In this document: piece by piece, positions 195-9,409 of the stretch
How the letters are laid out: each line of letters opens with the position of its first letter
Numbering within the stretch: position 1 is the first letter of the stretch
UHGV virus genome: UHGV-0216968
Length of the DNA: 9,409 nucleotides
Direction: 5' to 3' (one strand)
Source: a virus
Notes under the pieces: model-generated
Told to the model about the DNA's origin: nothing
Seen by the model: only the letters and a program-made list of their open reading frames with translations
Databases searched by the model: none
Program-made: the position numbers and the translations under genes

Positions 195-271
195 CGGCAC
201 GTAGCGCAGCCTGGTAGCGCACCGTCATGGGGTGTCGGGGGTCGGAGGTTCAAATCCTCTCGTGCCGACCA
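195..271 (+). tRNA. proL: tRNA-Pro (anticodon GGG)
   Basis: 77-nt cloverleaf: acceptor stem CGGCACG/CGTGCCG, D arm GCGC-AGCCTGGTA-GCGC, anticodon loop ATGGGGT, T arm GGAGG-TTCAAAT-CCTCT, encoded 3' CCA. Matches enterobacterial tRNA-Pro2 as I recall it. Confidence 0.85.
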
Positions 272-306
272 AATTGAATATCGGACAGCATCGGTAACCT
301 ATTGAA

Positions 307-339
307 AGCCCGTTAATTTACTGATTAACGGGCTTTTTT
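307..339 (+). terminator. rho-independent terminator after tRNA-Pro
   Basis: Perfect 11-bp stem AGCCCGTTAAT (307-317) / ATTAACGGGCT (324-334) with a 6-nt loop, followed by a T6 run ending at 339. Confidence 0.7.
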
Positions 340-394
340 GTTGTTTTCAGTCGCCGGATTGAATCGGTAAGATAGGGTTATAACCGGATTTTTT

Positions 395-463
395 AGCTAC
401 ACGTTTAGCTATACGGTCCAGCGTGTAGCTAAAGCCGTATAGCTACGACCAGGCATATAGCTA
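395..463. repeat. five copies of the palindromic hexamer TAGCTA upstream of int
   Basis: TAGCTA at 395, 406, 426, 440 and 458. The copies are arranged as interleaved inverted repeats (TAGCTACACG / CGTGTAGCTA and TAGCTATACGG / CCGTATAGCTA), ending about 18 bp before the int start codon. Confidence 0.6.
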
Positions 464-480
464 CCGATGGGTAAAAAAAC

Positions 481-1722
481 ATGGCACGAAAAACCACCCC
501 ACTAACCATTACGGAGATCAAAAACGCACGACCAGGGGAAAAGGAATACACCCTGCAGGATGGCGGAGGATTATTTCTTCTGGTGAAGCCCTCCGGATCA
601 AAAATATGGCGTTTTACGTACTACCGCCCGGCAGATAAAAAACGGACTATTATCAGCCTTGGATCGCTGAATGATGTTTCCCTGTCTGATGCCAGAGAGC
701 GACGGAATGAATACAGGTCACTAATAGCAAAGGGAACTGACCCACAGGACCATGAACGCCGGAAACGTGAAGCAGAGAGCCGGAAAAAGGGCAACACGTT
801 CGAAAAAGTTGCCTCGGACTGGTACGAGATGAAAAAAGGCCAGAATCTGGCTTACAACACGATTAAGGATATCTGGCGATCCCTGGAAAAATACGTATTC
901 CCGTACATCGGAAACACGCCAATAGATACCCTCACCGCTCGCCGCTTTGTTGAGATACTCACCCCCATTAAAGCACGCGGCAACCTGGAAACTCTGAAAC
1001 GCGTTTTGCAGCGCATCAATGAAGTGATGGATTTTGCCGCCAACAGTGGGCTGATTGACATCAACACCGCCGCGAACGTCCGCAAGGCATTCCCCTCACC
1101 CACCAAAAAGCACATGCCAACCATCCGACCGGAACAGCTACCGCAGCTAATGCACGATTTATCGGTCGCCAGCATAGAACGGCAAACCAGATTGCTGATT
1201 GAGTGGCAACTGCTGACCGTAGCACGCCCAGCCGAAGCAGCCGCCGCACGCTGGGAAGAAATAGATCTCGATGCCGAAACCTGGACGATTCCAGCCGGAC
1301 GCATGAAGATGCGCCGTGACCATGTGATCCCCCTTTGCGGTCAGGCTATGGCTGTACTGGAAACCATGAAGCCAATCAGCGCACACAGGGAACACGTTTT
1401 TCCCAGCCTTAAAAATCCGATGCTGCCAATGAGCAGCCAGACCGCTAACGCTGCATTACGCCGGATGGGTTACGCTGGTGTGCTGGTGTCTCACGGATTA
1501 CGCGCCATATTCAGCACAGCAGCGAACGAGGAAGGATTCGAACCGGACGTAATCGAGGCCGCACTCGCACACGTGGACACGAACGAGGTAAGGCGGGCAT
1601 ATAACCGAAGTAACTACCTGGAAAAGCGCGTGGTGCTTATGCGCTGGTGGGGTGAATTTGTGGAGGCTGCAGCTACCGGAGTGACCATAGCCAGCGGTAA
1701 AAGGGGTATCCGTGCCGTGTAG
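481..1722 (+). CDS. int: P4-family tyrosine integrase, 413 aa
   Basis: ATG at 481 preceded by an A-rich leader. The N-terminal region (LQDGGGLFLLVKPSGSKIWRFTYYR) is typical of the arm-binding domain of P4-like integrases. The C-terminal catalytic region carries RRDHVIPL, HGLRAIFST and RRAYNRSNY (putative catalytic Tyr). It lies immediately downstream of a tRNA gene. Confidence 0.93.
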   Translation: MARKTTPLTITEIKNARPGEKEYTLQDGGGLFLLVKPSGSKIWRFTYYRPADKKRTIISLGSLNDVSLSDARERRNEYRSLIAKGTDPQDHERRKREAESRKKGNTFEKVASDWYEMKKGQNLAYNTIKDIWRSLEKYVFPYIGNTPIDTLTARRFVEILTPIKARGNLETLKRVLQRINEVMDFAANSGLIDINTAANVRKAFPSPTKKHMPTIRPEQLPQLMHDLSVASIERQTRLLIEWQLLTVARPAEAAAARWEEIDLDAETWTIPAGRMKMRRDHVIPLCGQAMAVLETMKPISAHREHVFPSLKNPMLPMSSQTANAALRRMGYAGVLVSHGLRAIFSTAANEEGFEPDVIEAALAHVDTNEVRRAYNRSNYLEKRVVLMRWWGEFVEAAATGVTIASGKRGIRAV

Positions 1723-2122: not shown

Positions 2123-2156
2123 GTGGGTACCGTTTTAAAACGGTGGGTACTGTTTT
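2123..2156. promoter_or_regulatory. operator-like site upstream of alpA
   Basis: Direct repeat GTGGGTACCGTTTT (2123-2136) and GTGGGTACTGTTTT (2143-2156) enclosing a perfect 16-bp palindrome ACCGTTTTAAAACGGT (2129-2144), about 65 bp upstream of the alpA start. Confidence 0.4.
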
Positions 2157-2221
2157 TCCCGCCCTGCCCTGTTTTACCGTATTTATCACCGGAATACGCC
2201 GGATTAACGAGGTAAAACATA

Positions 2222-2428
2222 GTGGAAACAATCAGAAAAATACTTACCCGTCAGGAAGTAAAAAATATTCTGCGCATCAAGGCAGACAGTTCGCTACAGG
2301 ACATGATCAACGCCGGAAAATTCCCGAAAGGCTTCAAAATCGGTCTGCGTCGTGTTGGCTGGTATGAAGATGAAGTGCTGGCCTGGCTGAAAGAGCGCGA
2401 GGAAGAAGCGCGCGGAACGGCTGCGTAA
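2222..2428 (+). CDS. alpA: AlpA-family (MerR-like HTH) regulator/excisionase-like protein, 68 aa
   Basis: GTG start at 2222 with GAGG at 2208-2211. Translation METIRKILTRQEVKNILRIKADSSLQDMINAGKFPKGFKIGLRRVGWYEDEVLAWL has the characteristic AlpA pattern (R-VGW-E-EV-AWL). Position directly after int is typical for Gram-negative PICI/P4-like islands. Confidence 0.85.
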   Translation: METIRKILTRQEVKNILRIKADSSLQDMINAGKFPKGFKIGLRRVGWYEDEVLAWLKEREEEARGTAA

Positions 2429-3315: not shown

Positions 3316-3413
3316 CCTTGTTAATGCAAGGTGCAGAAACGACGAAACCCCGCACTGTAGGAGCAGTAACGGGGCTTCTAACCACCAACGATAGCAAGAT
3401 TATCGAGGTAGCT

Positions 3414-4071: not shown

Positions 4072-4371
4072 ATGAAACAGAAAATTTCTGGCTTTACTGC
4101 CAGCGGCCTCCCTCGGCCTGAAATCTGCCCCGGCGATATTTACCGGGATAAATACGGCAGCACGGTAATGATTAAAGGTGTTGCCGGACGGTGCGTTACT
4201 TACCGCCGTGAAGGTTATGAATATGACTGCGTGATGCCTGTTTATCAGTTCCGGCGTGATTTTTCTCTGGTACAGAACGCAACACGCGGTAAGCCCACCA
4301 GTTGGGAAAAAGCACGGGAAAATATTAAGAAAATAAAAAGCATGCTCAGCGCATCCAGAGGTAAAAAATGA
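4072..4371 (+). CDS. hypothetical protein, 99 aa
   Basis: ATG at 4072. Its stop overlaps the start of the replication gene (ATGA at 4368-4371). Basic C-terminus. No recognisable family. Confidence 0.5.
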   Translation: MKQKISGFTASGLPRPEICPGDIYRDKYGSTVMIKGVAGRCVTYRREGYEYDCVMPVYQFRRDFSLVQNATRGKPTSWEKARENIKKIKSMLSASRGKK

Positions 4372-5774
4372 AACTGGCACCGAACGTAAAACTGTTACCG
4401 AAAGATAAACACACTGAGGCGGTTATTTTTGCGGGTGATAATGCTCACTCCTTTGCAGAACATTACATGATTGCACAGGCCAAAAAAGCAGGCGATCCCA
4501 TCCCTCCGGTTTACCTGGGCCGTTATCAGTTAAGCGAACTGGACAATTTACAGATTGTTGATGAAGGACGATACAGAGCAAAGGTCATACGCGCCGGAAA
4601 CCTGGACGATATGCAGATGCTGACCATTGCCACCAAACTGGCGATCGCAGGTGTCCGGGAAGCGCGGTTACTTTCAGAGAATTTCGAACTACTGGAAGAC
4701 TGGAGCGAGCAACTACCGCGCCTTAAAGAAACCTGGGAACGTGGGGAAAGCCTGGTCATGAATGGTGGAAAGCGAAAAATCACACTTCCCATCTCATGGG
4801 GTTCTGAGGGATTCGACGCGCAGCAAAGCTACGTAATTAAGGGGCTTATTCCGGCTGAATCATTATGCAGCACCTACGGGGCCAGCGGCTCTTATAAATC
4901 GTTCCTGGCTATTTCCTGGTCGTGCCATGTTGCCACAGGTATGGCATGGGGAGGCCGCAGGGTCAGTAAGGGCGCGGTTATCTATATAGCTGGTGAAGGC
5001 AGCATGGGCGTAAAACGCCGCGTTAAGGCGTGGGAGATAACCCACGACAAGGTGGTTACAGATTTGTGCATCATTAACGCGCCTGTTTTCCCTGCATCGC
5101 CTGACTATGTGGAGCAGGTTATCAGAACTGCCGGACTTGTTAAGAGCAGAACGGGCGAAAATGTGCGGCTGATTGTGATAGACACGCTGGCCCGTTGCTT
5201 TGGTGGGAATGATGAAAATGATTCCCGTGATATGGGCGCATTTATCCAGGGGTGTGACGCGATAAAGCAGGCCACAGGGGCCACGGTGCTGGTGGTTCAC
5301 CATTCCGGCAAGGATGAAACAAAGGGGGCGCGTGGTTCCAGCGCATTCCGTGCCGCACTGGATGCAGAGTACCGAATCAGCCGGGAAAATTCAGACGTTA
5401 CAGCACTGGTGGCGGCGTGTACGAAGATGAAGGACGCAGAGGAGCCAAAAGAAAGCGCATACGACCTTAAAAGCGTGGAGGTGTTTACCGATACAGATGG
5501 CGAAGAGATTGTGTCCATGGTGGTGATTGACGTTCCCCGCGCCCCTGCTGAACTGGAACGCATCGAGGAGGCCGGGAACAAGACGGAAAATCACACGGCT
5601 TTATGGGGTTGTATCCGGTCACGTATACAGCATGGTGATAAATGCACGATCCCGCTGCTACGTGATGACATGAAAAAGCTGGGATATGACACAAAACACC
5701 TTAAACGATGGTTAGCCAAACTGGAAAAAGACGGCGTGATTTGCGTCGATGGGGATGATGTTCACCCACTGTAA
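4368..5774 (+). CDS. replication protein: RecA-superfamily RepA/DnaB-like ATPase, 468 aa
   Basis: ATG at 4368 with AGAGG at 4357-4361. Contains a P-loop-like YGASGSYKS, Walker B-like RLIVIDTL and a VLVVHHSGKD motif characteristic of RepA-type replicative helicases. The C-terminal ~60 aa look like a small DNA-binding domain. Iterons follow immediately downstream. Confidence 0.85.
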   Translation: MKLAPNVKLLPKDKHTEAVIFAGDNAHSFAEHYMIAQAKKAGDPIPPVYLGRYQLSELDNLQIVDEGRYRAKVIRAGNLDDMQMLTIATKLAIAGVREARLLSENFELLEDWSEQLPRLKETWERGESLVMNGGKRKITLPISWGSEGFDAQQSYVIKGLIPAESLCSTYGASGSYKSFLAISWSCHVATGMAWGGRRVSKGAVIYIAGEGSMGVKRRVKAWEITHDKVVTDLCIINAPVFPASPDYVEQVIRTAGLVKSRTGENVRLIVIDTLARCFGGNDENDSRDMGAFIQGCDAIKQATGATVLVVHHSGKDETKGARGSSAFRAALDAEYRISRENSDVTALVAACTKMKDAEEPKESAYDLKSVEVFTDTDGEEIVSMVVIDVPRAPAELERIEEAGNKTENHTALWGCIRSRIQHGDKCTIPLLRDDMKKLGYDTKHLKRWLAKLEKDGVICVDGDDVHPL

Positions 5775-6919: not shown

Positions 6920-7960
6920 ATGAGTGATTTATATTCGCCAGCTATGTTAATACAGGTTGTTAATGCCGAAGATATTCAATGGCAGATTAATTCTTTATTT
7001 ATAAACCTTTTTTTTAAGCGAGTCGTTACATTTGAGACGCGGGATATTGCGCTTGATATTATTGACGATCCAGACATCCCGATGGCTGCATTTTGTTCCC
7101 CTATGGTTGGTAGCAAAGTCTCACGCGATGAAGGCTACGAATCGAAAGTAATTCGTCCTGGCTACATGAAGCCAAAAAGTAGTATCGATCCAAATAAAAT
7201 AGCCGTTCGTCAACCAGGCGTATCACCGGAACAATTCAATGCATATTCATCACGCAGTTTCAAAATAAAGCGAGCGTTAGTAAGACAAGCGCAGGCAATT
7301 CGTGCGCGTATTGAGTGGCTTGCTGTTCAGGCGGTTACAACGGGGAAAAATATCATTGAAGGCGATGGAATTGAACGTTATGAACTGGACTGGAATATAA
7401 AACCACAAAATATTATCACGCAGTCCGGCGGTACGGAGTGGAGCGGTAGAGATTTATCAACATTTGATCCAAACGATGACATCGAAGAGTACGCAGAAAT
7501 CAGCGAAGGTACTACAAATATCATCGTAATGGGCCGCAACGTATGGAAAAAATACCGCGCCTTTAAAGCAGTAAAAGATTGCCTTGATACTCGACGGGGA
7601 TCTAATTCCGTTCTTGAAACGGCCCTGAAAAATCTTGGGGATTCTGTAAGCTTCAAGGGTTACGTTGGCGATGTTGCTATTGTGGTATATAGCGGACGTT
7701 ATACCGACGAGGACGGAACTGAAAGATATTTCCTTGATCCTGATTTGATGGTGCTTGGCAACACATCATTACAGGGCATCGTTGCCTACGGTGGCATTCA
7801 GGATCCTGAGTTAATCAGAATGGGGCTTACTAAAGCCGAACTTGCGCCGAAAAATTACATCGTACCAGGTGATCCGGCTATTGAGTACGTACAAACGCAC
7901 TCTGCACCACAGCCAATACCGGCCCGCATCAATCGTTTTGTTACCGTTCGCATTGGTTAA
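6920..7960 (+). CDS. major capsid protein, lambda gpE family, 346 aa
   Basis: AGAGG at 6911-6915 precedes the ATG. Blocks shared with lambda gpE as I recall it: NIITQSGGTEWSGRD, FDPNDDIEEYA, NIIVMG, FKAVKDCLDTRRGSNSVLETA, GDVAIVVYSG, MVLGNT, GDPA. Length is close to lambda E (341 aa). Confidence 0.92.
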   Translation: MSDLYSPAMLIQVVNAEDIQWQINSLFINLFFKRVVTFETRDIALDIIDDPDIPMAAFCSPMVGSKVSRDEGYESKVIRPGYMKPKSSIDPNKIAVRQPGVSPEQFNAYSSRSFKIKRALVRQAQAIRARIEWLAVQAVTTGKNIIEGDGIERYELDWNIKPQNIITQSGGTEWSGRDLSTFDPNDDIEEYAEISEGTTNIIVMGRNVWKKYRAFKAVKDCLDTRRGSNSVLETALKNLGDSVSFKGYVGDVAIVVYSGRYTDEDGTERYFLDPDLMVLGNTSLQGIVAYGGIQDPELIRMGLTKAELAPKNYIVPGDPAIEYVQTHSAPQPIPARINRFVTVRIG

Positions 7961-7969
7961 GGGGGAGCA

Positions 7970-8311
7970 ATGGCTACTCATTACACTGAACTCATGGCTG
8001 GCACTGAAGCACTGGTTACTACGTTGGGGATATTTTCAGCTAATAAAGGGGTAATTCCTGCATTTACGCCACTGATGCAAGAAGATGCAACTGGTGCACT
8101 GGTGGTATGGGATGGAACGAGCGCAGGCAAAGCTGTTTATGTTTCCGCTGTACAAATCGATACAGCGACAAAAACGCAGGCTCAGGTTTATAAAACCGGC
8201 GTCTTAAATGTTGATGCTCTGAACTGGCCTGAATCTGTAACACAACTATCAGCAAAAGTTGCTGCGTTTGTTGGCTCAGGTATTTCTGTTCAGCCGCTGG
8301 CACGTGTGTGA
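7970..8311 (+). CDS. head decoration protein, lambda gpD family, 113 aa
   Basis: Strong Shine-Dalgarno AAGGGGGAG before the ATG at 7970. Matches lambda gpD blocks: THY, TPLM, VVWDGT, YKTG...WPE, AAF.G.GIS. Size is close to lambda D (110 aa). Confidence 0.85.
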   Translation: MATHYTELMAGTEALVTTLGIFSANKGVIPAFTPLMQEDATGALVVWDGTSAGKAVYVSAVQIDTATKTQAQVYKTGVLNVDALNWPESVTQLSAKVAAFVGSGISVQPLARV

Positions 8312-8320
8312 GGTACGAGA

Positions 8321-8665
8321 ATGATTGAAAGAGATAGTCAGCTACGAGAGCTATTAGATATCGATGATAAAATGCGCTTAAGCGAGCGTCTTGTCGATAT
8401 GGATCAGGTAGTGGAGCTTACAACCCTTAGCCGTCGCACATTGCTAAACCTTGAGGCTCGCGGAGAGTTCCCCGAACGCGTACAGGTTACGAAAGGCCGC
8501 AAGGCATGGTATTTAAGCGAAGTTGTTGCGTGGATTAACAACATTCCGCGCGCATCAAATTATTGCCTTGTTCCCACCCCCGAAAAACCTGATGCGGCGT
8601 TATGCCTCAAGATTGAACGCGCCAGGCGTAATGCCCTGAAAGGGCGCAATAAGTTGATTGGTTGA
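8321..8665 (+). CDS. second AlpA/excisionase-like HTH protein, 114 aa
   Basis: GAGGT at 8311-8315 precedes the ATG. Central region VVELTTLSRRTLLNLEARGEFPERVQVTKGRKAWYLSEVVAWI is a MerR/AlpA-type HTH. Stop lies 26 bp before the cosQ-like sequence. Confidence 0.7.
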   Translation: MIERDSQLRELLDIDDKMRLSERLVDMDQVVELTTLSRRTLLNLEARGEFPERVQVTKGRKAWYLSEVVAWINNIPRASNYCLVPTPEKPDAALCLKIERARRNALKGRNKLIG

Positions 8666-8691
8666 TGAAATTAGGGCCCGTTCTGGCTGGC

Positions 8692-8756
8692 GGGTCCTTT
8701 CCGGCGATCCGGCAGGCTACGGGGCGGCGACCTCGCGGGTTTTCGCTATTTATGAG
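8692..8756 (+). other. lambda-type cohesive end site (cosQ-like, cosN, proximal cosB)
   Basis: GGGCGGCGACCT at 8722-8733 equals the lambda 12-nt cohesive end. Upstream CGGGTCCTTTCCGGCGATCCGGCAGGCTACG matches the lambda right end with 3 substitutions. Downstream CGCGGGTTTTCGCTATTTATGA matches lambda left-end nt 13-34. Comparison is from memory of the lambda sequence. Confidence 0.8.
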
Positions 8757-8866
8757 CCTTTTTCGGGTGCTGGTGGTGGTTTTGTTGTTCGCTCTATCTC
8801 TATGAATAAAAAGGAAAAGATAAAGCCAATACACCAACCTGAAACATTACTTAAGTGGGGATATTG

Positions 8867-9409
8867 ATGAAATCGCACCTGATGAACAAAAAAAACATGG
8901 CGCAAAGCTGCCGTGTAAGTGCGACAGCGTTCGACAAGTGGGGAGTGACTCCCGTTGAACGTAAAGGCCGCGAGGCGTTTTATGATGTTGCCAGCGTAAT
9001 AGACAATCGGGTTAGCAATGCAATTAACCAGATTACAGACGACAAAGGCGAGATTGATGATGATGAACTCCTACGAGTCAGGATCAGATTGCTGACAGCA
9101 CAGGCAGAGGCGCAGGAGCTTAAAAACGAGCGCGAACGCGGCGACGTTATTGATACAGCGTTTTGTATATACGTGCTTTCAAAATTGGCGAGTCAGATTT
9201 CTTCAATCATGGACAGCCTGCCGCTTGCCATGACAAGGAAGTTTCCCGACATGAAGCCGTCTATGCTGGATGGACTGAAAAAAGAAGTTATCAGAGCCTG
9301 TAACGCATGCGCAAAACTTGACGAAAACATACCGCTGATGCTGTCCGATTATCTGATGGAAACTGCCGGAAACGTACCGGATAAGTTGCAGCCGAATAAA
9401 GATAAGTAA
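8867..9409 (+). CDS. terminase small subunit, lambda Nu1 family, 180 aa
   Basis: ATG at 8867; alternative starts are GTG 8855 and ATG 8882. The N-terminus (MNKKNMAQSCRVSATAFDKWG...FYDVASVIDNR) parallels the Nu1 winged HTH (MEVNKKQLADIFGASIRTIQNWQ...LYDSAAVIKWY). The C-terminal half is strongly Nu1-like (RLLTAQAEAQELKNERERGDVIDTAFCIYVLSKLASQISSIMDSLPLAMTRKFPDMK). Stop falls at the window end. Confidence 0.88.
   Translation: MKSHLMNKKNMAQSCRVSATAFDKWGVTPVERKGREAFYDVASVIDNRVSNAINQITDDKGEIDDDELLRVRIRLLTAQAEAQELKNERERGDVIDTAFCIYVLSKLASQISSIMDSLPLAMTRKFPDMKPSMLDGLKKEVIRACNACAKLDENIPLMLSDYLMETAGNVPDKLQPNKDK

What the first reader, a model, noticed from the sequence alone, without database searches (positions are those of the whole stretch)
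395..463. Five TAGCTA palindromic hexamers between the att region and int
The copies are clustered within 70 bp and arranged as interleaved inverted repeats just upstream of the int start. They are candidate integrase arm-type sites, excisionase/AlpA sites, or an int operator. A CCGGATT motif also recurs nearby (354-360, 384-390) and again at 2199-2205.
Basis: seen in the sequence. Interest (0 to 1): 0.35.

Follow-up and report, generated by a model that had tools for sequence, protein, structure and literature searches.

The report
Integrase arm sites of a satellite island
The five TAGCTA motifs are real and are most likely docking sites for the island's own integrase, laid out as in the classic satellite phage P4, so this is an ordinary though cleanly resolved part of the island's integration machinery.

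Summary
TAGCTA occurs at 394, 406, 426, 440 and 458, and no cluster like it appeared in 5000 shuffles. The hexamer is only the middle of an asymmetric 12-bp unit, TTTAG(C/T)TAYACG. Two units lie head to tail (392-415) and three are inverted (422-433, 436-447, 454-465).

The window is the left end of a ~10.6 kb PICI-type phage satellite at tRNA-Pro(GGG). Crossover falls in or beside CTCGTG (259-264), so the cluster is the int-proximal (P') arm of attP/attL, not a region "between att and int".

Evidence that these are integrase arm-type sites:
- In 11 related islands, a co-oriented doublet of the same unit lies at the attR end. In the 10 measured, its centre is exactly 78 bp from the core.
- The P' doublet lies at +142/143, or at +153 in two loci.
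- Phage P4's annotated "attP arm sequence repeats" have the same layout (75/134 bp, plus an inverted copy at the int start).
- The unit changes class together with the Int arm-binding domain. Residues 1-95 fall to 53-57% identity while the rest stays at 72-85%, and attB is unchanged.

The inverted copies probably also act as an int auto-operator, as in P4. The CCGGATT motifs belong to a separate set of boxes phased 10 bp apart, which are candidate AlpA/Vis sites. This is a new member of a known kind, of low to moderate interest.

The parts
195..271 (+). tRNA-Pro(GGG) gene (proL locus, between yejM and yejO in E. coli). Its 3' end is the attB/attL core region.
   Evidence: ARAGORN, Rfam tRNA, RefSeq annotation of the related locus L001.
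259..264 (.). CTCGTG, the identity block that contains or adjoins the strand-exchange region. Island DNA begins here.
   Evidence: In L002 an island with an identical left end is inserted in rclA. The only sequence shared by both junctions and the target is CTCGTG. Degenerate tRNA 3'-end copies lie at attR in L001 and L003-L005.
279..297 (+). Box cluster 1: ATCGGA and ATCGGTAA, with CGG at 282 and 292, 10 bp apart. Candidate AlpA/Vis (recombination directionality factor) boxes.
   Evidence: Read from the sequence and repeat family D2. Relatives carry equivalent phased boxes here, e.g. CACCGGATATCACCGGAAAGCACCGGATAAG in L003. Binding is inferred only.
304..343 (+). Island-encoded stem-loop plus T-run that supplies a terminator after the tRNA. 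The loop region resembles an IHF site with one mismatch.
   Evidence: Terminator scan, 15-pair stem at 304-337. A hairpin is conserved at this place in all 13 aligned loci. The IHF resemblance was read by eye; the exact-consensus scan found no site in 250-480.
351..390 (+). Box cluster 2: GCCGGATT (354-360), ATCGGTAA, a degenerate AGGGTT, and ACCGGATT (384-390), with CGG at 355, 365, (375) and 385, in 10-bp phase. Candidate AlpA/Vis boxes that abut the first arm unit.
   Evidence: The block ...CGG...CCGTTTACAGCCGGAWTTTTT is conserved across arm-site classes. P4 has CCGA-10-CCGT-10-CCGGA at the same place.
392..403 (+). Arm-type unit P'1, TTTAGCTACACG.
   Evidence: It forms a doublet with P'2, and that doublet is repeated at attR in related islands.
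404..415 (+). Arm-type unit P'2, TTTAGCTATACG, contiguous with P'1. The doublet centre lies 142 bp from the core centre.
422..433 (-). Arm-type unit P'3, inverted (TTTAGCTACACG on the minus strand).
   Evidence: An inverted copy is conserved at this position in all proL-type relatives.
436..447 (-). Arm-type unit P'4, inverted (CGTAGCTATACG on the minus strand).
   Evidence: Conserved in relatives.
454..465 (-). Arm-type unit P'5, inverted and the most degenerate (GGTAGCTATATG on the minus strand), 15 bp upstream of the int ATG. It is specific to this island lineage.
   Evidence: It is absent from L003-L007, while other lineages have 1-4 inverted copies that reach or overlap the int start codon.
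481..1722 (+). int: a P4-type tyrosine integrase. Arm-binding domain at residues 8-94, central domain at 107-203, catalytic domain at 215-379.
   Evidence: Pfam Arm-DNA-bind_3, Phage_int_M and Phage_integrase. 33% identity to P4 Int, E=3e-80. The N-terminal domain matches the solved arm-type binding domains 3JU0 and 3JTZ.
2189..2205 (+). CCGGAAT and CCGGATT, 10 bp apart, immediately upstream of the alpA ribosome-binding site. Candidate AlpA autoregulatory boxes of the same type as at attL.
   Evidence: The pair is conserved in L001, L003, L012, L014 and L016, and P4 vis has CCGGA/TCCGG in the same place.
2222..2428 (+). alpA, the homologue of P4 Vis and the presumed recombination directionality factor and island activator.
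   Evidence: Pfam Phage_AlpA. 30% identity to P4 Vis, E=6e-9. P4 Vis is itself a Phage_AlpA member.

Best explanation
The five TAGCTA-containing 12-bp units are the arm-type binding sites of the int-proximal (P') arm of the island's attachment site. They are read by the N-terminal arm-binding domain of the island's P4-type integrase. In the excised circle, attP runs in this order: a doublet of the same unit (P arm, centre -78), an IHF-like site, the core (CTCGTG region in the tRNA-Pro 3' end), two clusters of 10-bp-phased CCGGA-type boxes separated by a terminator hairpin, the P' doublet (centre +142), a 6-bp spacer, three inverted units, and the int start. Int monomers would bridge arm units and core sites to build the integrative and excisive complexes, as in lambda and P4 (inferred). 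The inverted units next to the int start probably also let Int repress its own gene, as shown for P4 Int (inferred by analogy). AlpA, the Vis homologue, probably binds the phased CCGGA boxes to bend attL and drive excision (inferred). Shown here: the sequence anatomy, the mirrored doublet on the other arm, the invariant spacing, and the covariation with the Int arm domain. Not shown: any binding, the position of the int promoter, and the attR of the window's own island, which lies outside the window.
For: 1. The cluster is far beyond chance.
2. The extended unit occurs only at the two island ends in 25-32 kb loci, apart from one or two stray hits per locus.
3. A co-oriented doublet of the unit lies at the attR end of every related island whose end was captured, 11 loci in all.
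4. The P doublet centre is exactly 78 bp from the centre of CTCGTG in 10 of 10 loci. The P' doublet is at +142/143 in eight loci and at +153 in two, about one helical turn further.
5. The unit changes in concert on both arms between lineages: TAGCTA, TAGTTA, GGGACTAG.
6. Int residues 1-95 are 67-78% identical to the window's Int in TAGYTA-class islands but only 53-57% in GGGACTAG-class islands. Residues 96-205 (81-85%) and 206-413 (72-85%) hold up much better, and attB is the same. AlpA shows no such class-specific drop: 71% for L013 against 66% for L008.
7. Int carries Arm-DNA-bind_3 and matches the solved arm-binding domains 3JU0 and 3JTZ.
8. The P4 GenBank record annotates 12-bp 'attP arm sequence repeat' features with the same layout: a doublet ~75 bp on one side of the core, a doublet ~134 bp on the int side, and an inverted copy over the int start.
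9. HE-PICIs have a doubled motif 81 bp upstream and 132 bp downstream of the attP centre (PMC10111431).
10. Twelve-bp doublets upstream of int occur in 53 of 79 family loci against 38 of 349 control segments.
11. P4 Int and PAI-I536 IntI repress their own promoters (PMC7286903).
Against: - There is no binding or genetic data for this island.
- The window itself holds only one arm, so the mirror copy is shown in relatives (90% identical L001, and L002 with an identical left end), not in the source genome.
- No sigma-70-like int promoter was found, so the autorepression step has no mapped target.
- The fifth unit is degenerate and lineage-specific.
- The inverted arrangement could also fold as a hairpin.
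- In EcCICFT073, AlpA did not affect int expression (PMC6092414), so P4-style regulation cannot be assumed in detail.
Confidence: 0.85

Rival explanations
1. The units are bound by AlpA, the island's Vis/Xis-like factor, rather than by Int, and serve as excisionase or activator sites.
For: AlpA is encoded 0.5 kb downstream of int. The authors who found the analogous doubled motif in HE-PICIs left AlpA open as a possible binder (PMC10111431).
Against: The unit class tracks the Int arm domain, not AlpA. No unit occurs near alpA or any other promoter in the window. A distinct, better-fitting set of 10-bp-phased CCGGA boxes is shared by attL and the alpA leader. Directionality-factor sites are typically direct repeats one helical turn apart (PMC7498355 abstract), whereas these units are contiguous 12-mers plus inverted copies on both arms. 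P4's equivalent repeats are annotated as arm repeats.
Confidence: 0.06
2. The cluster is mainly a transcriptional operator for int, or an RNA/DNA hairpin in its leader, and has no role in recombination.
For: The units sit 15-90 bp upstream of the int ATG. In relatives and in P4 the last inverted copy overlaps the start codon. Positions 385-480 fold at -30.6 kcal/mol, z = -3.0.
Against: The same doublet sits about 10 kb away at the other island end, with no gene to regulate and no inverted partner, at an invariant 78 bp from the core. The number and spacing of inverted copies vary between lineages (1-4 copies, gaps of 4-20 bp). That fits protein sites better than a conserved helix. An operator role is compatible with the best explanation rather than exclusive of it.
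Confidence: 0.06
3. The repeats are iterons of a replication origin, or binding sites for a host protein.
For: Short tandem and inverted repeats are typical of origins, and P4 has ori and crr repeats close to attP.
Against: The units are absent from the replication module, the RepA-helicase region at 4368-5774 and its flanks. They co-vary with Int while the replication genes differ freely between islands that carry the same unit (RepA helicase, primase or DUF927). A host-factor site would not switch class among islands in the same host and at the same attB.
Confidence: 0.02

Closest known systems
Satellite phage P4 attP (arm sequence repeats, Int, Vis; Pierson & Kahn 1987, as annotated in NC_001609)
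   Same: Same integrase domain architecture, 33% identity. int is transcribed away from a tRNA-embedded core. Contiguous 12-bp doublets lie on both arms, co-oriented (P4 75/134 bp from the core centre, here 78/142). There is at least one inverted copy at the int start. CCGGA-type phased boxes lie between the core and the P' doublet and upstream of vis/alpA. The leader 12-mer ATTAACGAGGTA is identical upstream of vis and alpA.
   Different: The unit sequence differs (ATTGGGGGCATA in P4, TTTAGCTAYACG here). There are three inverted copies here against one in P4. attB is proL rather than leuX. The element is a PICI-type satellite with lambda E/D-like capsid genes and a Nu1-like TerS, not a P4-type one. 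P4 has a further annotated repeat inside int; the look-alike at this int's stop codon does not co-vary and was rejected.
Doubled motif of helper-embedded PICIs (tgTGTATTGCantgTGTATTGCa; Mageeney et al. 2023, PMC10111431)
   Same: A PICI with a related integrase clade. A tandem doubled motif occurs once on each arm, co-oriented, at fixed distances (81 +/- 2 and 132 +/- 2 bp there; 78 and 142 bp here).
   Different: The motif sequence differs, and that paper reported its motif as absent from other PICIs. This island adds an inverted set right after the P' doublet. The binder was left open there; here covariation points to the Int arm domain.
Bacteriophage lambda attP (P1, P2 / P'1-P'3 arm sites, Xis and IHF sites)
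   Same: The same logic: a heterobivalent integrase, two arm sites on one arm and three or more on the other, an IHF site between arm and core, and directionality-factor sites between core and arm (textbook knowledge; role of the arm-binding domain as summarised in PMC8138268).
   Different: The arm-binding domain subfamily differs (DUF4102/Arm-DNA-bind_3). int points away from att, so the P' arm overlaps the int control region. The site sequences are unrelated.
Integrase autoregulation at attL (P4 Int/Vis; KplE1 IntS/TorI; PAI I536 IntI)
   Same: The int promoter region overlaps attL, so Int and the directionality factor can repress int (PMC7286903).
   Different: Not tested for this island. 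In the PICI EcCICFT073, AlpA did not change int expression (PMC6092414).

Membership tests
P4-type (IntSXT subgroup, P4 cluster) integrase attP with arm-type repeats | The integrase has an N-terminal DUF4102/Arm-DNA-bind_3 arm-binding domain plus core-binding and catalytic domains. | tested here: met
   Pfam PF13356 (E=7e-24), PF22022 and PF00589. PDB 3JU0 E=1e-20 and 3JTZ E=5e-13. 33% identity to P4 Int.
P4-type (IntSXT subgroup, P4 cluster) integrase attP with arm-type repeats | The same short repeat is present on both arms of attP, i.e. near attL and near attR of the integrated element. | tested here: met
   An attR-side doublet of the matching unit was found in L001-L005, L007, L011-L014 and L016. 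The window's own attR lies outside the window, so this rests on close relatives (L002 has an identical left end).
P4-type (IntSXT subgroup, P4 cluster) integrase attP with arm-type repeats | The repeats lie at fixed distances from the crossover core. | tested here: met
   78 bp in 10 of 10 loci. 142/143 bp in 8 and 153 bp in 2. P4: 75 and 134 bp.
P4-type (IntSXT subgroup, P4 cluster) integrase attP with arm-type repeats | The repeat sequence is specified by the arm-binding domain (covariation). | tested here: met
   Arm-domain identity drops to 53-57% in GGGACTAG-class islands, while the central domain stays at 81-85% and the catalytic domain at 72-85%. L016 against L017 shows the same pattern.
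P4-type (IntSXT subgroup, P4 cluster) integrase attP with arm-type repeats | Int physically binds the repeats, and they are required for recombination. | not testable with these tools
   Needs gel shift or footprinting, and att mutagenesis.
Recombination directionality factor (Xis/Vis/AlpA) binding sites | Direct repeats spaced about one helical turn apart, between the core and the arm sites on one arm, often also at a promoter the factor regulates. | tested here: not met
   This result is for the TAGCTA units: contiguous 12-mers plus inverted copies, on both arms, none at alpA. The separate CCGGA-type boxes do meet this description, but binding is untested.
HE-PICI doubled motif (PMC10111431) | The sequence tgTGTATTGCantgTGTATTGCa occurs once on each arm. 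| tested here: not met
   The geometry matches but the unit sequence is unrelated. It is the same kind of site, not the same motif family.
Phage-inducible chromosomal island (Gram-negative PICI) | int then alpA at the left end, unidirectional genes, a replication module, packaging-hijack genes including terS, ~10 kb, and its own att site. | tested here: met
   Gene content. RefSeq annotation of relatives and island lengths of 5.4-11.5 kb. Induction by a helper phage was not tested.

The most novel reading that the evidence does not exclude
Satellites that compete for the same tRNA-Pro site have repeatedly swapped the integrase arm-binding domain together with its arm repeats. At least three classes (TAGYTA, GGGACTAG, GGCATA) sit on otherwise 63-93% identical core-binding and catalytic domains and use the same attB core. 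This modular swap could act as an orthogonality device that stops co-resident or tandem islands from assembling each other's intasomes, so each island keeps private control of its own excision. It would also provide natural, exchangeable arm-domain and arm-site pairs for engineering.
Probability: 0.25. Interest if true: 0.55.

Novelty: new member of a known kind. Interest (0 to 1): 0.28.

Why it matters
The finding gives a base-resolution map of the attachment site of a widespread E. coli phage satellite at proL: the core, two arm doublets, IHF-like sites, candidate AlpA boxes and a candidate int operator. Published PICI descriptions read here do not provide such a map. PMC6092414 does not mention arm sites, and PMC10111431 describes a different motif for one clade.

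The map is practically useful for three things:
- delimiting islands precisely;
- designing minimal attP cassettes or PICI-based delivery vehicles;
- choosing mutations that lock an island in or out.

The comparative result, that arm domain and arm repeat switch together while core specificity stays fixed, is a clean natural illustration of the modular, heterobivalent design of these integrases. It does not change the understanding of how they work.

Tried and rejected
- **int promoter.** The consensus scan of 100-2500 found no sigma-70-like promoter. Inspection by eye found only poor -10/-35 candidates inside the units. A TTGACC hexamer conserved in many relatives is not present in the window. 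The promoter remains unplaced.
- **Sixth unit at the int stop codon.** The sequence at 1716-1727 (TACAGCTACACG on the minus strand) looked like P4's intragenic repeat. I rejected it because TAGTTA-class L003/L004 keep GTGTAGCT while TAGCTA-class L001 has GTGTAACT, the opposite of covariation. It is explained by the Val-stop codons.
- **Sixth TAGCTA at 3409.** It lacks the extended unit and is taken as chance.
- **Structured RNA.** Rfam found nothing but the tRNA. A hairpin is predicted but is an expected by-product of inverted protein sites.
- **IHF sites.** An exact-consensus scan found sites only in the P arm of L001 and L002. The window's P' arm has only a one-mismatch match in the terminator loop.
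- **Literature.** The primary P4 paper on Int/Vis repression of int (doi 10.1099/vir.0.81875-0) is not held, so those facts come from a citing paper and from memory. A full-text search for the unit sequences found no relevant paper.
- **AlpA-box covariation.** In L005/L007 the boxes and the alpA leader both differ from the window, but no clear rule emerged. The assignment of the boxes to AlpA therefore stays an inference.

Full report
**1. Observation**

TAGCTA occurs at 394, 406, 426, 440 and 458, and only once more in the 9409-base window, at 3409. Shuffles of the window expect 1.35 copies, and none of 200 reached 6. A cluster of five within 70 bp never appeared in 5000 dinucleotide-preserving shuffles; the largest cluster was three. 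Shuffling only the intergenic stretch 272-480 gave at most two copies.

The interleaved inverted repeats are exact: 392-403 with 422-433, and 406-416 with 435-445.

**2. What the repeated unit is**

Extending the hexamers gives a 12-bp unit, TTTAG(C/T)TAYACG.
- Units 1 and 2 (392-403, 404-415) are contiguous and point towards int.
- After a 6-bp spacer, units 3, 4 and 5 (422-433, 436-447, 454-465) are inverted.
- Unit 5 is the most degenerate.

Islands at the same site whose integrase is 83% identical carry TTTAGTTATACG in the same layout. The palindromy of TAGCTA is therefore incidental, and the unit is asymmetric.

**3. Context**

- Positions 195-271 are tRNA-Pro(GGG).
- In E. coli genomes the window matches the left end of an island between yejM/proL and yejO.
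- The island encodes:
  - a P4-type integrase (481-1722);
  - AlpA (2222-2428);
  - a RepA-type helicase;
  - lambda E-like and D-like capsid proteins;
  - a second AlpA-domain protein;
  - a Nu1-like small terminase.
- This is the gene set of a Gram-negative phage-inducible chromosomal island (PICI).

In strain ETEC1738, an island whose left end (window 272-700) is 100% identical sits in rclA instead. Its two junctions share only CTCGTG with the target. That places crossover in or next to window 259-264, inside the tRNA 3' end. Everything to the right, including the terminator hairpin at 304-337 and the TAGCTA cluster, is island DNA. The cluster is therefore part of attL, as the P' arm of attP.

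**4.

Yes. In L001 (90% identical overall), a 26-nt copy of units 1+2 lies at the far end of the island, upstream of a degenerate copy of the tRNA 3' end. The same holds in L002, L003, L004, L005, L007, L011, L012, L013, L014 and L016. That is every related island whose right end was inside the fetched DNA.

- The attR-side doublet is co-oriented with the P' doublet.
- Its centre is exactly 78 bp from the centre of CTCGTG in 10 of 10 measured loci.
- The P' doublet centre is at +142 or +143 in eight loci and at +153 in two, about one helical turn more.
- An exact IHF consensus lies between the P-arm doublet and the core in L001 and L002. L003-L005 have one-mismatch versions at the same place (read by eye).

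**5. Who reads the units?**

Int has an Arm-DNA-bind_3 domain at residues 8-94. That domain matches the solved arm-type binding domains of the HAI7 and HPI island integrases (3JU0, 3JTZ).

Eighty loci from other species were fetched with Int as the query. Among the closer relatives (L007-L029), 20 of 23 show the same layout upstream of int: a 12-bp doublet followed by one to four inverted copies that reach or overlap the int start. L018, L021 and L027 do not show a clean doublet. The unit falls into classes:
- TAG(C/T)TATACG;
- TTTGGGACTAGA;
- TTTAGGCATAYR;
- AATTGGTACACG;
- further classes in more distant relatives.

The class change is concerted on both arms and tracks the arm-binding domain.

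| Compared with the window's Int | Residues 1-95 | Residues 96-205 | Residues 206-413 |
|---|---|---|---|
| TAGYTA-class islands with intact int | 67-78% | 63-93% | 79-89% |
| L008 / L009 (TAGYTA class) | 69 / 71% | 85 / 85% | 85 / 83% |
| GGGACTAG-class L013-L015 | 53-57% | 81-85% | 72-85% |

All of these islands use the same attB. L016 and L017 are equally distant in the body of the protein, yet their arm-domain identity is 67% (same class) against 51% (different class).

AlpA shows no such class effect: 71% identity for L013 against 66% for L008. This is the main argument that Int, not AlpA, reads the units.

**6. Comparison with what is known**

The GenBank record of satellite phage P4 annotates 12-bp "attP arm sequence repeat" features:
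- a contiguous doublet about 75 bp from the centre of the annotated core;
- a co-oriented doublet about 134 bp away on the int side;
- an inverted copy over the int start codon;
- one further copy inside int.

This is the architecture found here, with a different unit (ATTGGGGGCATA).

A 2023 study of helper-embedded PICIs found a doubled motif 81 +/- 2 bp upstream and 132 +/- 2 bp downstream of the attP centre. It proposed the integrase arm domains or AlpA as binders (PMC10111431). The geometry is the same and the motif is different.

A simple scan found 12-bp doublets within 180 bp upstream of int in 53 of 79 family loci across Proteobacteria, against 38 of 349 control segments. With an inverted copy downstream, the figures were 25 of 79 against 5 of 349.

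The TAGCTA cluster is thus a new sequence variant of an old and widespread design.

**7. Likely mechanism**

*Shown:* the anatomy, the mirror copy, the spacing and the covariation.

*Inferred:*
- Int monomers bind arm units with the N-terminal domain and core sites with the rest of the protein. They bridge the arms to the core across IHF-induced bends, as in lambda and P4.
- The inverted units lie 15-60 bp from the int ATG, and in several relatives and in P4 they overlap it. They probably let Int shut off its own gene. This has been reported for P4 Int and for the P4-like IntI of PAI I536 (PMC7286903).
- I could not place the int promoter, so this step is the weakest.

**8. The CCGGATT remark**

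These motifs are part of a second repeat system.
- Between the core and the P' doublet, CGG-centred boxes lie in 10-bp phase.
- Cluster 1 is at 282 and 292.
- Cluster 2 is at 355, 365, a degenerate 375, and 385.
- The terminator hairpin separates the two clusters.

Relatives have equivalent phased boxes at the same places whatever their arm class. P4 has CCGA-10-CCGT-10-CCGGA abutting its P' doublet.

A pair of CCGGA boxes 10 bp apart also sits just upstream of the alpA ribosome-binding site, at 2189 and 2199. The pair is conserved in L001, L003, L012, L014 and L016. P4 vis has CCGGA and TCCGG in its leader, followed by the same ATTAACGAGGTA 12-mer.

Other points bear on who binds these boxes:
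- AlpA and Vis are homologues.
- Directionality-factor sites are typically direct repeats one helical turn apart (PMC7498355 abstract).
- From memory, P4 Vis binds two boxes between int and the core (Cali et al. 2004; paper not held).
- In EcCICFT073, AlpA activates its own gene and drives int-dependent excision (PMC6092414).

I therefore read these boxes as candidate AlpA sites, with a probability of about 0.5. This is separate from the main claim.

**9. Rivals**

- **AlpA binding to the TAGCTA units.** Disfavoured by the covariation, by the absence of units near alpA, and by the existence of the better-fitting phased boxes.
- **A pure operator or leader hairpin** (predicted -30.6 kcal/mol, z = -3.0). 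This cannot explain the distant, partnerless doublet at a fixed distance from the core.
- **Origin iterons or host-factor sites.** These do not fit the distribution or the class switching.
- **The unit-like sequence at the int stop codon.** It fails the covariation test and reflects coding.

**10. Verdict**

The feature is a new member of a known kind, the arm-type sites of a P4-type attP in a PICI satellite. The attachment site is now mapped in detail.

The mildly novel by-product is the coupled swapping of arm domain and arm repeat among satellites that share one tRNA target. That swapping could serve to keep co-resident islands from cross-reacting; this idea is untested.

Noticed in passing
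L002 13985-13990 and 24736-24741 (NZ_CP122768, E. coli ETEC1738): An island whose left end (window 272-700) is 100% identical is inserted inside rclA instead of proL. Only CTCGTG is shared between the target and the island ends. This is a secondary-site integration that disrupts the reactive-chlorine resistance gene and pins down the crossover region.
   Followed up: partly
window 279-297, 351-390 and 2189-2205: CGG-centred boxes (ATCGGA, ATCGGTAA, GCCGGATT, ACCGGATT, CCGGAAT) lie in strict 10-bp phase, in two clusters in attL and as a pair just upstream of the alpA ribosome-binding site. They are conserved in relatives and resemble P4's attP and vis leader. They are candidate AlpA/Vis boxes.
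   Followed up: partly
window 2123-2150: GTGGGTAC is repeated 20 bp apart (2123-2130, 2143-2150) around the perfect palindrome ACCGTTTTAAAACGGT (2129-2144), about 75 bp upstream of alpA. It is also present in L001 and L003. It may be the operator through which a helper phage switches on alpA.
   Followed up: no
window 2205-2216 and L006 (P4) about 9035-9046, minus strand: The 12-mer ATTAACGAGGTA, which includes the ribosome-binding site, is identical upstream of the island's alpA and of P4 vis, although the proteins are only 30% identical.
   Followed up: no
window 304-343: The island carries its own strong terminator hairpin between the core and the arm sites, replacing the native terminator of the tRNA. 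A hairpin is kept at this position in all 13 aligned loci, and its loop resembles an IHF site.
   Followed up: partly
L001 18745-18772, L002 24621-24648, L003 24628-24655 (attR side, just upstream of the P-arm doublet): A block AAATTGTAYAYTTTTKCAGCAAA is conserved immediately upstream of the attR-side doublet in L001-L005, the five loci whose attR flank was printed this far upstream. Its function is unknown. It could be a promoter that reads across attP towards int in the excised circle, or a further protein site.
   Followed up: no
L013, L014, L015, L017 compared with window 481-765: The integrase arm-binding domain and the arm repeat class switch together (TAGYTA, GGGACTAG, GGCATA), while the rest of Int and the proL target stay the same. 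This is modular exchange among satellites that compete for one site.
   Followed up: partly
window 6920-8311 and 8321-9409: The satellite encodes lambda E-like major capsid and D-like decoration proteins, a second AlpA-domain protein (8321-8665), and a Nu1-like small terminase that runs off the window end.
   Followed up: no
L001 13917-13933 and 15359-15375: An exact 17-nt direct repeat, ATATAAAACCACAAAAT, has one copy downstream of the helicase gene and one inside the capsid gene of the related island. Its meaning is unknown.
   Followed up: no
L001 8482-8499 and 9842-9859: The first 18 nt of int after the A of its start codon (TGGCACGAAAAACCACCC) recur at 89% identity at the start of the small ORF downstream of int in L001. 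This may be a remnant of a second int 5' end. The window's ORF at 1821-2051 starts differently.
   Followed up: no
L030-L086, upstream of int: Distant family members in Pseudomonas, Xanthomonas, Zoogloea, Desulfovibrio, Rhodobacterales and others also have 12-bp doublets 20-70 bp upstream of int, for example TGGGGGTAT, CAGTACATC and GGGGGCAAC.
   Followed up: partly
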